Shown: piece by piece, positions 40,353 through 58,429 of the stretch
Layout: the number at the start of each line of letters is the position of its first letter
Position numbering within the stretch: position 1 is the first letter of the stretch
Assembly (NCBI RefSeq): GCF_009914755.1
Contig: NC_060930.1
Source: the human T2T-CHM13v2.0 reference genome, Homo sapiens
Reading direction: 5' to 3' (one strand)
DNA: 64,000 bases
The notes under the pieces: model-generated
What the model saw: the letters and a program-made list of their open reading frames with translations, nothing else
What the model was told of the DNA's origin: nothing
Databases searched by the model: none
Translations under genes and position numbers: made by a program

Positions 40353-42356
<2,004 letters not shown>

Positions 42357-55677: not shown

Positions 55678-56162
55678 TCATTGCATTCTTCTTTTATGAA
55701 TACACTCTCTTTTCTCTATATTGCTGTCATCTGGCTTTAAAAACATGCTGTCCTGACTTGGTTTTGAGTCTCTAGCTAGAGACAGGTCAGTTTCCCTTAT
55801 TAATACTCGAGGGGGTTCTGGAAGTTATCTTTTCTCTGCAGTGTCCCATTTCCCCAAGTTGCTTTTCCCCCTTCCTTGCGTCTCCTTGATATTAGAGACT
55901 TTGGTGGTATGCTGCTGCATTCTTTAGGGTGTAAACATTCACACCACCCTCCCCACTGACTCTCGGGTCCTCCCCCGCAGCTGTGCCCCTGGTCCCCAGT
56001 GCAGAGACCTTCTCCTTTCCCCTCTCCTGAAAATACATCTGTCCCCAGGCTTGTGCTGCAGTGGGAAAGGGCCCGTCCAGGAGTCGGGGAGGGATCCTGG
56101 AATTTAAAAGCATCTTTAACAGCTCCTCCTCAGAAACCCAGTCACACTTCCTTCCCCGCTAG

Positions 56163-57774
56163 TGAGAGGTGCCAGCCTGCTGGCAGCCCCCCTTCGCTCT
56201 TGGCACCTCCTCGGCCTCGACGCCCACTCTGGCCGTGCTTGAGGAGTCCTTCAGCCTACCGCTGCACTGTGGGATCCCTTCCAGGGATGGCCGAGGCCGG
56301 AGCCGGCTCCCTTGGCTTGCGGGGAGGTGTGGAGGGACAGGCACGGGCAGTAACCGGGGATGCGCGCGGCGCTTGCGGGCCAGAGCGAGTTCTGGGTGGG
56401 CTTGGGCTCGGCCGGCCCCGCCGGCCCAGGCAGTGAGGAACTTAGCACTTGGGCCAACAACGGCTGTCCTCGATTTCTTGCCAGGCCTTAGCTGCTTCCC
56501 CATGGGGCAGGGCTCGGGACCTGCAGCCCACCATGCCTGAGCCCCCCGTCCCAACCCCGCCCTGGGCTCCTGCACAGCCCGAGTCTCCTGAGCCTCCCGG
56601 ACGAGCGCCGCCCCCTACTTCACAGCACAGAGTCCCATTGACCGCCCAAAGGACTAAACAGTGCGGGTCCACGGGCGGGACTGACAGCTCTACCTGCGGC
56701 CCCGCTGGGGAATACCACCGGGTGAAGCCAGCTGGGCTCAGTCAGTCTGGTGGGGACTTGAACAATCTTTATGTCTAGCTAAGGGGTTGTAAATACACCA
56801 ATCAGCACTCTGTATCTAGCTCAAGGTTTGTAAACACACCAATCAACACCCTCTGTCTAGCTCAGGGTTTGTGGCTGCACCAATCGGCACTCTGTATCTA
56901 GCTAATCTGGTGGGGACTTGGAGAACCTTTTTATCTAGCTAAGGGATTGTGAATACACCAATCGGCACTCTGTATGTAGATGAAGGTTTGTAAATGCACC
57001 AATCAGCACCCTGCGTCTAGCTCAAGGTTTGTAAATGCACCAATCGGCGTTCTGTGTCTAGCTGATCTGGTGGGGACTTGCAGAACCTTTATGTCTATCT
57101 AAGGGATTGTGAATGCACCAATCGGCACTCTGTATCTAGCTCAAAGTTTGTAAATGCACCAATCAGCACTCTGTGTCTAGCTCAGGGTTTGTAAATACAC
57201 CAATTAACACTCTGCATCTAGTTAATCTAGTGGGGACGTGGAGAACTTTTGTGTCTAGCTCAGGGATTGTAAACGCACCAATCAGCACCCTGTTAAAAAC
57301 GGACCAATCAGCTCTCTGTAAAACAGACCAATCGGCTCTCTGTAAAATGGACCAGTCAGCAGGATGTGGGTGGGGCCAGATAAGAGAATAAAAGCAGGCT
57401 GCCCGAGCTAGCCCCGGTAATTTGGTTAGTTTGTTTCATATGATGTGAGATATTTGTCTTTTTTTTTTTTGTTTTTTGGGTTCAGATTGTTGTTGGGAGT
57501 TTCAGCGGTTTTTTGCAAAAGTCTGTAGATTTTTCTGAATCTAATGTGGGTTGTGAGCCCTTGAAAAAGAACAGAGAACTTCAGATATGGTACTTTAAGT
57601 ATGATAACATGAACTGTGAAGGTCTGCAGCTTTCCTCCCGAACTAGTGAGACAGCGAACTCTGGGCAACGCTGTGTTTAACAGCTGGAACACTCACTATA
57701 CAGCTAAAACACTTTAAGTTTGCAACTTCGTTCTTGAAATTAGTAAGACCGAGAACCCGCTAGTTCTGGACACA
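56163..57774 (+). mobile_element. Solo LTR12 (LTR12C-like, HERV9/ERV9)
   Basis: tgagaggtg...ggacaca; TSD CTAG at 56159-62 and 57775-78; CCAAT subrepeat array ~56740-57360; AATAAA box at 57387-92. Confidence 0.95.
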
Positions 57775-58429
57775 CTAGTTCCCAGGGTTACCAGGTGCTG
57801 CCTCTTTATGAAAGGCTGAGGCTTTTTGGCTGTTAGCTTTTCTCTATCTAGTATTCGGCTTTTCTCAGGTTAGTTATTTGCCCTACCGCTGACGTTTGTC
57901 TTGTACGTTTTTCCGCAGTTTTCTTTTAAGCGCTCTATTCTTGTGGGTGGTTTTGTTTTGGTAATTCAGGAAAGAAAATGAGGTGTGTGCATTCGTTACC
58001 TATCTTTCCCCTGAACTACAGTTGAGTGGTGTGTTACTTATCTTTCCTCTGAACTACATGGTAATTTGTGGTTCAGGCTACAGGACTCTGAAAACATGAC
58101 TAGAAATCCTATTTCATTGGTGTATGCTCTTAAAATTCAAAAAAACTAAATGCCTAATTCTTTCGTGTCTATATTCTCAAAATCTTGTCAAGCCAAGGAA
58201 GGTAAAGGAGAAAGTAGTATTCAGTCATCGGTAGCTTTTTGTATTCAATCTTTCTCATTGATAAAGCTTTAAAGGTCGTACAGGTCCTCACTTCATGACA
58301 ATGATAAAAGGAATCACAAGAGGGCAGGTTTACTTGGTGAGCAGAAGGATTGGAAGCATTTTCTCTCTTGACATTGTTTGGAATTGCCAGCCCATGATAA
58401 TAAAAAGCAGAGTTTTGATCAATCGGTTG

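What the first reader, a model, noticed from the sequence alone, without database searches (positions are those of the whole stretch)
57400..57990. Abrupt, strand-skewed divergence starting at the LTR12 transcription start site
Seen: the core promoters of the two LTR12s (~41730-41895 vs ~57237-57403) align almost base for base. Just after the AATAAA box and gcaggctgcc, this copy turns into T/G-rich sequence (tttggttagtttgtttcatatgatgtgagatatttgtctttttttttttt...) that barely aligns to the other copy. The skew appears to run ~200 bp past the LTR end. Known: ERV9 LTRs initiate just downstream of this AATAAA-type box and are NF-Y-driven promoters active in the germline. Inference: a local, transcription-coupled germline mutation process (C>T, A>G/T on the non-template strand) acting at an active TSS. 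I do not know whether this is already described for LTR12.
Basis: partly seen in the sequence, partly recalled or inferred. Interest (0 to 1): 0.75.

Follow-up and report, generated by a model that had tools for sequence, protein, structure and literature searches.

The report
Promoter-anchored hypermutation in two LTR12 remnants
Two neighbouring leftover retroviral promoters (ERV9/LTR12 solo LTRs) are ordinary up to their transcription start and then carry an extreme, one-strand excess of C-to-T and A-to-G changes, an unusually strong example of mutation tied to where transcription begins.

Summary
Copy 2 is a solo ERV9 LTR12 (LTR12C-type) at 56163-57774, flanked by CTAG on both sides. Its U3 is 92-95% identical to many genomic copies. 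From the published start-site motif (57407-57418) onwards, identity falls to about 50-57%.

The diverged stretch is still LTR12 R/U5, not foreign DNA. Recoded as purine/pyrimidine it scores far above shuffles. No other subfamily matches it.

Against single natural copies, 34-36 of 51-53 sense-strand C read T. Only 3-6 of 32-35 G read A. For A to G the count is 7-14 of 30-33, for T to C 2-6 of 37-41. The C-to-T share declines with distance from the start site.

None of 119 other copies reaches either one.

The two flanks of copy 2, adjacent before insertion, differ in the predicted direction. This and the neighbour coincidence favour damage after integration, tied to initiation at each LTR. Editing before integration is not excluded.

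The kind of asymmetry is known for human start sites. Its strength and restriction to this locus are not. It does not generalise across LTR12.

The parts
56163..57774 (+). Copy 2: solo ERV9 LTR12 (LTR12C-type), 1612 nt, TG...CA ends
   Evidence: Read directly. 57000-57403 matches at least 39 genomic copies at 92-95%.
56159..56162 (.). Left target-site duplication CTAG of copy 2
   Evidence: Read directly. Identical to 57775-57778.
57775..57778 (.). Right target-site duplication CTAG of copy 2
   Evidence: Read directly.
56746..57293 (+). U3 enhancer array of about 41-nt CCAAT-bearing units (11.1 units, higher order 160 nt x 3.4)
   Evidence: Tandem Repeats Finder. Matches the published LTR12 U3 layout (PMC11853044, passages read).
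57379..57403 (+). Core promoter 25-mer with the AATAAA-type box (57387-57392); intact
   Evidence: Identical in copy 1. 1751 places in the genome at up to 1 mismatch.
57407..57418 (+). Remnant of the published LTR12C start-site motif (GCCAGCAGTGGC in print); 7 of 12 positions kept; first change at 57409
   Evidence: The motif is taken from a PMC11853044 passage.
57409..57563 (+). Strongly hypermutated R and start of U5: sense C-to-T at about 65%, A-to-G at 23-42%, about 25 nt missing
57564..57774 (+). Rest of U5: moderately hypermutated, with C-to-T 0.2-0.5 by bin and G-to-A also raised (GG context 0.56)
57779..58050 (+). Unique host flank with G+T (mainly T) excess; possible continuation of the tract
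   Evidence: Composition only; no ancestral sequence was available.
40646..42322 (+). Copy 1: solo LTR12 of the same type, 1677 nt, CTAG at 40642-40645 and 42323-42326
41896..42055 (+). Copy 1 hypermutated tract: C-to-T 16-17 of 49-50, A-to-G 11-15 of 32-33. It holds exon 1 of LOC102724234 (41883-41967) and its splice donor at 41968.
   Evidence: plus the RefSeq table.

Best explanation
Both elements are ordinary ERV9 LTR12C-type solo LTRs. After they integrated, each suffered intense mutation of deamination type, anchored at its own transcription start.

In the first ~160 nt the sense (non-template) strand lost about two thirds (copy 2) or one third (copy 1) of its C to T, and about a third of its A to G. 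Further downstream the C-to-T share falls, and changes at C on the other strand (read as G to A) appear too. In copy 2 the tract probably runs about 270 nt into host DNA.

What is shown: homology to LTR12 R/U5, the onset at the start-site motif, the strand bias, the gradient, the rarity, and the compositional step across the insertion site.

What is inferred: that the cause is exposure of the non-template strand during initiation or pausing in germline or early-embryo cells, and that something about this locus makes it extreme. The chemistry is not resolved. Candidates are spontaneous single-strand deamination, or an AID/APOBEC3-type enzyme followed by error-prone repair.
For: 1. Onset. Identity to 70 copies is 97% in -50..0 and 50% in +1..+40. 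The C-to-T share by 40-nt bin runs .60 .78 .64 .57 .49 .27 .38 .35 .20 .22.
2. Strand bias against four single natural copies. Copy 2: C-to-T 34-36 of 51-53, G-to-A 3-6 of 32-35 (Fisher p 2e-7 to 4e-5); A-to-G 7-14 of 30-33, T-to-C 2-6 of 37-41. Copy 1: A-to-G 11-15 of 32-33, T-to-C 2-3 of 43-47.
3. Homology. The purine/pyrimidine-recoded local score is 61.9, against 34.0 +/- 3.2 for shuffles.
4. Locus effect. Skew in +1..+160 is 72 and 50 for the two window copies. The 119 other copies have mean 7.3, sd 11.5, max 36. Copy 1 was not selected for this, so its rank gives about 1 in 120.
5. Independent events. The C-to-T sites of copies 1 and 2 overlap as chance predicts: 8-12 shared against 7.6-10.6 expected.
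6. Flanks. The two flanks of copy 2, once adjacent, differ by +94 in skew, which 0.17% of 2369 adjacent window pairs reach. C/(C+T) drops from .59 to .32, matched by 0.63% of pairs. Pyrimidine content is unchanged.
7. Transversions in the tract are about twice those of ordinary copies.12 against .04-.10.
8. No inverted LTR12 partner lies in the window. Copy 2 shows no TC or CC preference.
9. Print. A local excess of C-to-T over G-to-A in the first 1-2 kb of transcripts and a global excess of A-to-G over T-to-C, both on the non-template strand (PMC2927911, passages read). A start-site hotspot dependent on testis expression, also at lncRNA start sites (PMC13712754: abstract, sections 6 and 10).
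Against: - The size of the effect is far beyond what is reported for start sites in general. It would need a rate tens of times the local background for the element's whole residence.
- The published hotspot spans both directions from the start site (PMC12658150 abstract). Here the upstream side is clean.
- The 5 sampled LTR12 copies that are RefSeq gene starts are not more skewed: 34, 12, 4, 0, -4 (p = 0.50).
- No start site is annotated at copy 2.
- Ordinary R regions have more C than G on the sense strand, so they are not obviously prone to R-loops.
- The flank argument rests on composition. The flank's excess is T over A (0.45), with little G over C (0.06).
- Copy 1 shows no flank step (+22).
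- GG-to-AG in U5 is raised in both copies.56 and .42, against .149 in ordinary copies. That is the classical footprint of editing during reverse transcription.
Confidence: 0.55

Rival explanations
1. The changes were made before integration, in one replication cycle. On this view the 5' R-U5 of the genomic RNA was deaminated (C to U, A to I), and the minus-strand strong-stop DNA was deaminated as well (read as G to A). These are the only templates for R-U5 of both LTRs, so U3 stays clean and the step falls exactly at the U3/R border.
For: - The step lies at the U3/R border.
- The density is typical of one-step retroviral hypermutation.
- T-to-C is the only transition not raised. This fits enzymes that deaminate RNA A, RNA C and DNA C, but not DNA A.
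- GG-to-AG is raised in U5 of both copies.
- CC-to-CT preference in copy 1.
Against: - Two independent integrations 15.5 kb apart are both beyond all 119 other copies.
- The compositional step continues into host flank at copy 2.
- Sense C-to-T clusters are the rare control direction in surveys of edited ERVs, about ten times fewer than G-to-A (PMC4866542, passages read).
- A-to-G is least frequent before G, the opposite of the ADAR preference as I recall it.
- There is no dsRNA partner in the window.
- Transversions are also raised.
- The tract fades within U5 rather than filling R-U5 evenly.
Confidence: 0.25
2. An RNA-mediated route after integration. Transcripts starting at the LTR are edited and are then copied back into the locus during repair, so only transcribed sequence changes.
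For: - It would explain the sharp onset at the start site, the sense-strand C-to-T plus A-to-G, and the reach into the flank.
- Reverse transcription is mentioned as an alternative source of strand bias in the PMC2927911 abstract.
Against: - There is no direct evidence here.
- The A-to-G context is not ADAR-like.
- G-to-A in U5 is unexplained.
Confidence: 0.05
3. The R/U5 comes from another LTR12 subfamily, or from foreign DNA (a recombinant or an insertion), at normal divergence.
For: An ordinary four-letter local alignment of 57404-57563 to LTR12 scores barely above shuffles (9.5 against 8.0 +/- 0.6). Repeat masking stops at 57411.
Against: - A genome search with 57404-57790 finds nothing for its first 165 nt, and only 76-90% fragments for the rest.
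- Copy 1's R/U5 finds only 74-76% matches.
- The purine/pyrimidine score is about 8.7 sd above shuffles.
- The alignment is collinear with LTR12 R/U5 up to the LTR end.
Confidence: 0.02
4. Ordinary decay. R/U5 is simply the fast-evolving, CpG-rich part of every LTR12, and these two copies are the tail of that distribution.
For: - All copies drop from 88-93% identity (-100..0) to 75-88% (+1..+160).
- CC-to-CT is already three times more frequent than other contexts in ordinary copies.
Against: - Copy 2 lies 5.6 sd and copy 1 3.7 sd above 119 copies.
- Non-CpG C-to-T is .60 in copy 2, against at most .40 in the others.
- The changes are one-directional on one strand.
Confidence: 0.05

Closest known systems
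Transcription-associated strand asymmetry and the germline start-site mutation hotspot of human genes (PMC2927911; PMC12658150; PMC13712754)
   Same: C-to-T exceeds G-to-A on the non-template strand close to the start site. A-to-G exceeds T-to-C. All mutation types are raised just downstream of the start. The effect is also reported at lncRNA start sites, and exposure of single-stranded non-template DNA has been proposed as the cause.
   Different: Here the effect is seen in single elements, not in a pooled average. About 65% of C is converted in 160 nt. Nothing is changed upstream of the start. It is confined to two neighbouring LTRs out of 121 examined.
APOBEC3 DNA editing of endogenous retroviruses (PMC4866542)
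   Same: Dense clusters of transitions on one strand in an LTR element. There is some GG-to-AG excess in U5 of both copies, and a CC-to-CT preference in copy 1.
   Different: The main signal is sense-strand C-to-T, which that survey used as its negative control. It is joined by A-to-G. Copy 2 shows no dinucleotide preference. The tract seems to pass into host DNA.
Germline mutation clusters with an APOBEC3G motif in transcribed regions of hominid genomes (PMC4864454)
   Same: Strand-coordinated changes at C after integration, tied to transcription and 5' UTRs. Copy 1 and ordinary LTR12 copies share the CC context.
   Different: Those clusters hold a few mutations; here there are dozens within 160 nt. 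The A-to-G component is not explained by that enzyme.
Immunoglobulin somatic hypermutation (recalled, no call)
   Same: It starts just after a promoter and fades over some hundred nucleotides. C is hit on both strands, and A is changed more than T on the coding strand.
   Different: That is a somatic B-cell process with WRC hotspots, as I recall. No such hotspot is visible here, and these changes are heritable.

Membership tests
ERV9 LTR12 (LTR12C-type) solo LTR | U3 enhancer of 5-17 tandem ~41-nt units with CCAAT motifs (PMC11853044) | tested here: met
   Period-41 arrays of 11.1 units in both copies.
ERV9 LTR12 (LTR12C-type) solo LTR | Close sequence identity to many genomic LTR12 copies | tested here: met
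   At least 39 copies at 92-95% over 404 nt. The core 25-mer has 1751 places at up to 1 mismatch, and 0 for the reversed control.
ERV9 LTR12 (LTR12C-type) solo LTR | Start-site motif GCCAGCAGTGGC at the U3/R border (PMC11853044) | tested here: inconclusive
   It is present at the expected place but mutated: 7 of 12 positions kept in copy 2 and 9 of 12 in copy 1, by my reading.
ERV9 LTR12 (LTR12C-type) solo LTR | About 600-nt 5' extension, found in LTR12C/D/E (PMC11853044) | tested here: met
   A GC-rich stretch of about 580 nt (56163-56745) lies ahead of the repeat array. Total lengths are 1612 and 1677 nt.
ERV9 LTR12 (LTR12C-type) solo LTR | Solo state: one LTR between identical short target duplications | tested here: met
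   CTAG on both sides of each copy.
ERV9 LTR12 (LTR12C-type) solo LTR | Subfamily call (C, D or E) against curated repeat models | not testable with these tools
No Dfam or RepeatMasker was available here.
APOBEC3-edited retroelement | Sense-strand G-to-A clusters far above C-to-T | tested here: not met
   In +1..+160 of copy 2, G-to-A is 3-6 of 32-35 and C-to-T is 34-36 of 51-53. Only U5 shows raised GG-to-AG.
ADAR-hyperedited sequence | A-to-G clusters with the ADAR neighbour preference (recalled) and a nearby inverted partner able to form dsRNA | tested here: not met
   A before G is the least converted context, 1-3 of 9-13. Both LTR12 copies in the window are on the + strand.
Transcription-associated start-site mutagenesis | Non-template C-to-T above G-to-A and A-to-G above T-to-C, beginning at the start site and fading downstream | tested here: met
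Transcription-associated start-site mutagenesis | Acts on whatever DNA lies downstream, across the element's border | tested here: inconclusive
   There is a compositional step of +94 across copy 2's insertion site (0.17% of pairs). No ancestral flank was available. Copy 1 shows no step.
Transcription-associated start-site mutagenesis | Depends on expression in germline or early embryo | not testable with these tools
   No expression data were available. RefSeq starts LOC102724234 at copy 1 (41883) and nothing at copy 2.

The most novel reading that the evidence does not exclude
A heritable, promoter-anchored hypermutation process acts at particular loci in the human germline or early embryo. 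In layout it resembles antibody-gene hypermutation: it starts at the start site, fades over some hundred nucleotides, hits C on both strands, and changes A only on the coding strand. It can rewrite most of the C in a first exon within the lifetime of a hominoid retroelement. In copy 1 it created the splice donor of a new lncRNA.
Probability: 0.3. Interest if true: 0.8.

Novelty: new variant of a known kind. Interest (0 to 1): 0.55.

Why it matters
LTR12 has about 1750 near-identical promoters in the genome. The starting sequence of any one copy can therefore be read from its relatives without an outgroup.

That makes these two copies a rare single-locus view of what initiation-linked mutation does to DNA over millions of years. 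It shows which strand is hit, which bases change, how far the effect reaches, and with what result. In copy 1 the A-to-G changes turned the LTR's polyadenylation signal into the splice donor used by LOC102724234.

If the process acted after integration, mutation pressure at some start sites can be one to two orders of magnitude above the pooled averages in print, and it is locus-specific.

It also matters for practice. Such tracts escape repeat masking (masking stops at 57411 and 41899) and inflate divergence-based ages of LTRs.

Tried and rejected
- **Foreign insertion or other subfamily.** Rejected.
- **Subfamily-inherited T-rich R.** Rejected. The C-to-T sites of the more skewed copies overlap as chance predicts.
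- **Regional strand bias from read-through of LOC102724234.** Rejected. The 13.8 kb between the LTRs has a skew of only +1.3 per 100 nt, less than RIOK1 at +6.3, and U3 of copy 2 is clean.
- **Paralogues of the flank as comparators.** None exist; the flank is unique in the genome.
- **R skew against downstream-flank skew in 21 other copies.** No relation (rho -0.01). Those copies have little skew, and my LTR-end finder there was imprecise by a few bases.
- **U3 CpG retention as a proxy for germline hypomethylation, against R skew.** Weak positive relation (rho 0.44, p = 0.02, n = 28). It is confounded by the variable U3 structure, so I give it little weight.
- **RefSeq gene starts at LTR12 copies.** 5 of 119, with no excess skew.
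- **Selection bias in my first comparison.** Searches showed a step in every copy. Part of that came from picking comparators on U3 similarity. Sets chosen on the U5 end and in genome order corrected it.
- **Dating.** Only a rough estimate was possible. U3 differs from other copies as much as they differ from each other: 5-11% pairwise. So the age is that of the main LTR12 expansion, which print places between about 30 and 6 million years ago (PMC11853044, passage read). No ape genome was available.
- **Literature.** I found no description of this effect for LTR12. The searches were 'LTR12 + hypermutation' (12 papers), 'LTR12C + R-loop' (8 papers) and a DNA editing/APOBEC/ERV9 search; for all three I saw listings only. 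'LTR' and 'retrotransposon' or 'transposable' occur 0 times in PMC13712754 and PMC12658150. 'LTR12' occurs 0 times in the main text of PMC4866542. Supplements were closed; those of PMC4866542 may list edited LTR12 copies.
- **LOC102724234.** One paper mentions it, a GWAS review. I saw the listing only.

**Rows dropped**
- Set A: L049 was left out because its BLAST row failed my length filter. It was included (skew 6).
- Set B: of 29 loci, 5 lacked the promoter motif (L002, L006, L008, L011, L030), and 3 chr8 duplicates (L019-L021) were dropped, leaving 21.
- of 125 loci, 6 lacked the motif (the same five plus L056, whose skew was 8), leaving 119.
- One search used 25 of the 70 set-C copies, drawn at random, as comparators.
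Full report
**What is there.** The window holds two copies of the 25-nt LTR12 core promoter, at 41871-41895 and 57379-57403, both on the + strand.

Copy 2 runs from 56163 to 57774 (1612 nt) and has CTAG on both sides. Copy 1 runs from 40646 to 42322 (1677 nt), also between two CTAG. Copy 1 sits in what I read, from recall, as an Alu.

Both copies share these features:
- a GC-rich 5' part;
- an array of about 41-nt CCAAT units (11.1 units);
- the AATAAA-type box;
- then R/U5.

This is the layout given for ERV9 LTR12 in the review PMC11853044 (passages read). The review also states that a ~600-nt 5' extension marks LTR12C/D/E. I could not run curated repeat models, so 'LTR12C-type' is provisional. 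Identical 4-nt duplications around a single LTR make both copies solo LTRs.

**Check of the observation.**
- The two core promoters are identical at 158 of 165 aligned positions.
- Copy 2's U3 end (57000-57403) matches at least 39 genomic copies at 92-95%.
- Its R/U5 (57404-57790) finds nothing in the genome for its first 165 nt, and only short 76-90% pieces further on.
- Composition in 57404-57563 is A26 C18 G41 T75.
- Repeat masking stops at 57411, and at 41899 in copy 1.
- The skew past the LTR end is present by composition: +74 per 250 nt, in the top 0.27% of windows.

**Is it still LTR12?** Yes.
- The multiple alignment is collinear with other copies up to the LTR end. One gap of about 25 nt falls where other copies carry the R-region AATAAA.
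- Recoded as purine/pyrimidine, 57404-57563 scores 61.9 against 49 copies. Shuffles give 34.0 +/- 3.2. The four-letter score (9.5) is near the shuffle level (8.0 +/- 0.6).
- So the differences are mostly transitions.
- Copy 1's R/U5 matches other copies at only 74-76%.
- No subfamily with a matching R/U5 was found for either copy.

**Controls for the step.** My first comparators were chosen on U3 similarity, and with them every copy showed a step. Part of that was selection bias.

With 21 copies chosen on the U5 end, ordinary copies have 88-93% identity in -100..0 and 75-88% in +1..+160. Copy 2 goes 92.8 to 57.0 to 71.4 (the last for +161..+380). Copy 1 goes 91.1 to 67.6 to 73.7.

With 70 copies taken in genome order from 1751 promoter matches, the G+T minus A+C skew in +1..+160 has mean 5.3, sd 8.7 and max 30. 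Over 119 distinct copies the mean is 7.3, sd 11.5 and max 36. Copy 2 has 72 and copy 1 has 50.

**Spectrum.** The table gives counts in +1..+160 against four single natural low-skew copies.

| Change | Copy 2 | Copy 1 |
|---|---|---|
| C to T | 34-36 of 51-53 | 16-17 of 49-50 |
| G to A | 3-6 of 32-35 | 3-7 of 29-30 |
| A to G | 7-14 of 30-33 | 11-15 of 32-33 |
| T to C | 2-6 of 37-41 | 2-3 of 43-47 |

- U3 of both copies is ordinary, at about 4% per transition class.
- Against 70 copies, copy 2's C-to-T share by 40-nt bin is .60 .78 .64 .57 .49 .27 .38 .35 .20 .22. Identity is 97% in -50..0 and 50% in +1..+40.
- The first change (57409) lies inside the remnant of the start-site motif reported for active LTR12C.
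- Transversions are about doubled.

**Sequence context.**
- Copy 2 shows no 5'-neighbour preference for C-to-T. It may be saturated.
- Copy 1 prefers C after C (p <= 0.01 with 4 of 4 references).
- Ordinary copies show the same bias at a fifth of that level.159 against about .05. So copy 1 looks like an amplified version of a family-wide spectrum.
- A-to-G is least frequent before G.
- In U5, G-to-A is raised in both copies, most of all before G.56 and .42, against .149 in ordinary copies (max .316).

**Before or after integration?** Three results favour after.
1. Copies 1 and 2 are independent insertions with different flanks, and their changed sites overlap only as chance predicts. Yet both exceed all 119 other copies. 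Copy 1 was not chosen for this property.
2. The flanks of copy 2 were adjacent before insertion. Their pyrimidine content is about the same, but C/(C+T) is .59 upstream and .32 downstream. The skew step is +94, which 0.17% of 2369 adjacent window pairs reach.
3. The tract fades with distance from the start site rather than filling R-U5 evenly.

Against this reading:
- The flank test uses composition only, and the flank has no paralogue.
- Its excess is T over A, with little G over C.
- Copy 1 shows no flank step.
- GG-to-AG in U5 is the classical editing footprint.
- The density resembles one-step hypermutation.
- The 5 sampled copies that are RefSeq gene starts are not more skewed.
- The region between the LTRs is not skewed. 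So read-through transcription is not the cause, but initiation at each LTR could be.

**Relation to print.**
- Polak and colleagues report a local excess of C-to-T over G-to-A in the first 1-2 kb of transcripts and a global excess of A-to-G over T-to-C, on the non-template strand. They ascribe the first to single-stranded non-template DNA near the start site (PMC2927911, passages).
- Two recent papers describe a germline hotspot at start sites. It peaks about 25 nt downstream, depends on testis expression, and is also seen at lncRNA start sites (PMC13712754: abstract, sections 6 and 10). It shows a coding-strand C-to-T excess (PMC12658150, passages).
- Neither paper mentions LTRs.
- Surveys of APOBEC-edited ERVs use sense C-to-T clusters as the negative control (PMC4866542, passages).
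- Germline clusters with an APOBEC3G motif in transcribed regions have been proposed (PMC4864454, passages).

So the kind of asymmetry is known. The single-locus intensity, the clean upstream side and the restriction to two neighbouring LTRs are not described in what I could search.

**Age and family.** This is ERV9 LTR12, LTR12C-type. U3 divergence from other copies equals that among ordinary copies. So the insertions belong to the main expansion, which print places between about 30 and 6 million years ago (PMC11853044). Divergence of R/U5 must not be used for dating. Orthologues could not be examined.

**Verdict.** This is a real feature, not a recombinant and not an insertion. The most likely cause is mutation of the non-template strand, linked to initiation and acting after integration, at extreme and locus-specific intensity (0.55). 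Editing before integration is the main rival (0.25).

Noticed in passing
window 41960-41975: In copy 1 the place where other copies carry the R-region AATAAA signal reads GGTAAG. RefSeq exon 1 of LOC102724234 ends at 41967. So A-to-G changes of the hypermutated tract removed the polyadenylation signal and created the splice donor that the lncRNA uses.
   Followed up: partly
window about 57455-57470 (gap in the alignment): Copy 2 lacks about 25 nt that in other copies hold the same AATAAA signal. Both window copies have therefore lost the LTR's polyadenylation signal, each in a different way.
   Followed up: no
window 40642-40645, 42323-42326, 56159-56162, 57775-57778: Both solo LTRs have the same 4-nt target duplication, CTAG. 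In 4 of 4 other copies shown the LTR end is followed by ATA plus one base. This hints at a target preference with a central TA.
   Followed up: no
window 57888-57987: The T-rich host flank keeps 4 CpG in 100 nt (observed/expected 1.14 at 40% GC). This would fit long-term hypomethylation just downstream of copy 2.
   Followed up: no
119 LTR12 copies genome-wide: Copies lying inside a same-strand RefSeq gene have a higher sense-strand G+T skew in +1..+160 than the rest (n = 15, mean 13.2, against n = 99, mean 6.3; p = 0.019). RefSeq gene starts at LTR12 copies lie +16 to +164 from the end of the 25-mer.
   Followed up: partly
all LTR12 copies sampled: Family-wide, R/U5 is more diverged than the core promoter. 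In +1..+160, sense C after C reads T three times more often than C in other contexts (.159 against about .05).
   Followed up: partly
window 40618-41119: RefSeq lists an 'H3K4me1 hESC enhancer' over the 5' part of copy 1's U3. Nothing comparable is listed at copy 2.
   Followed up: no
L018-L021 (chr8): Four near-identical LTR12 hits on chr8 with the same scores, most likely one locus copied by segmental duplication. Three were dropped from the counts.
   Followed up: no
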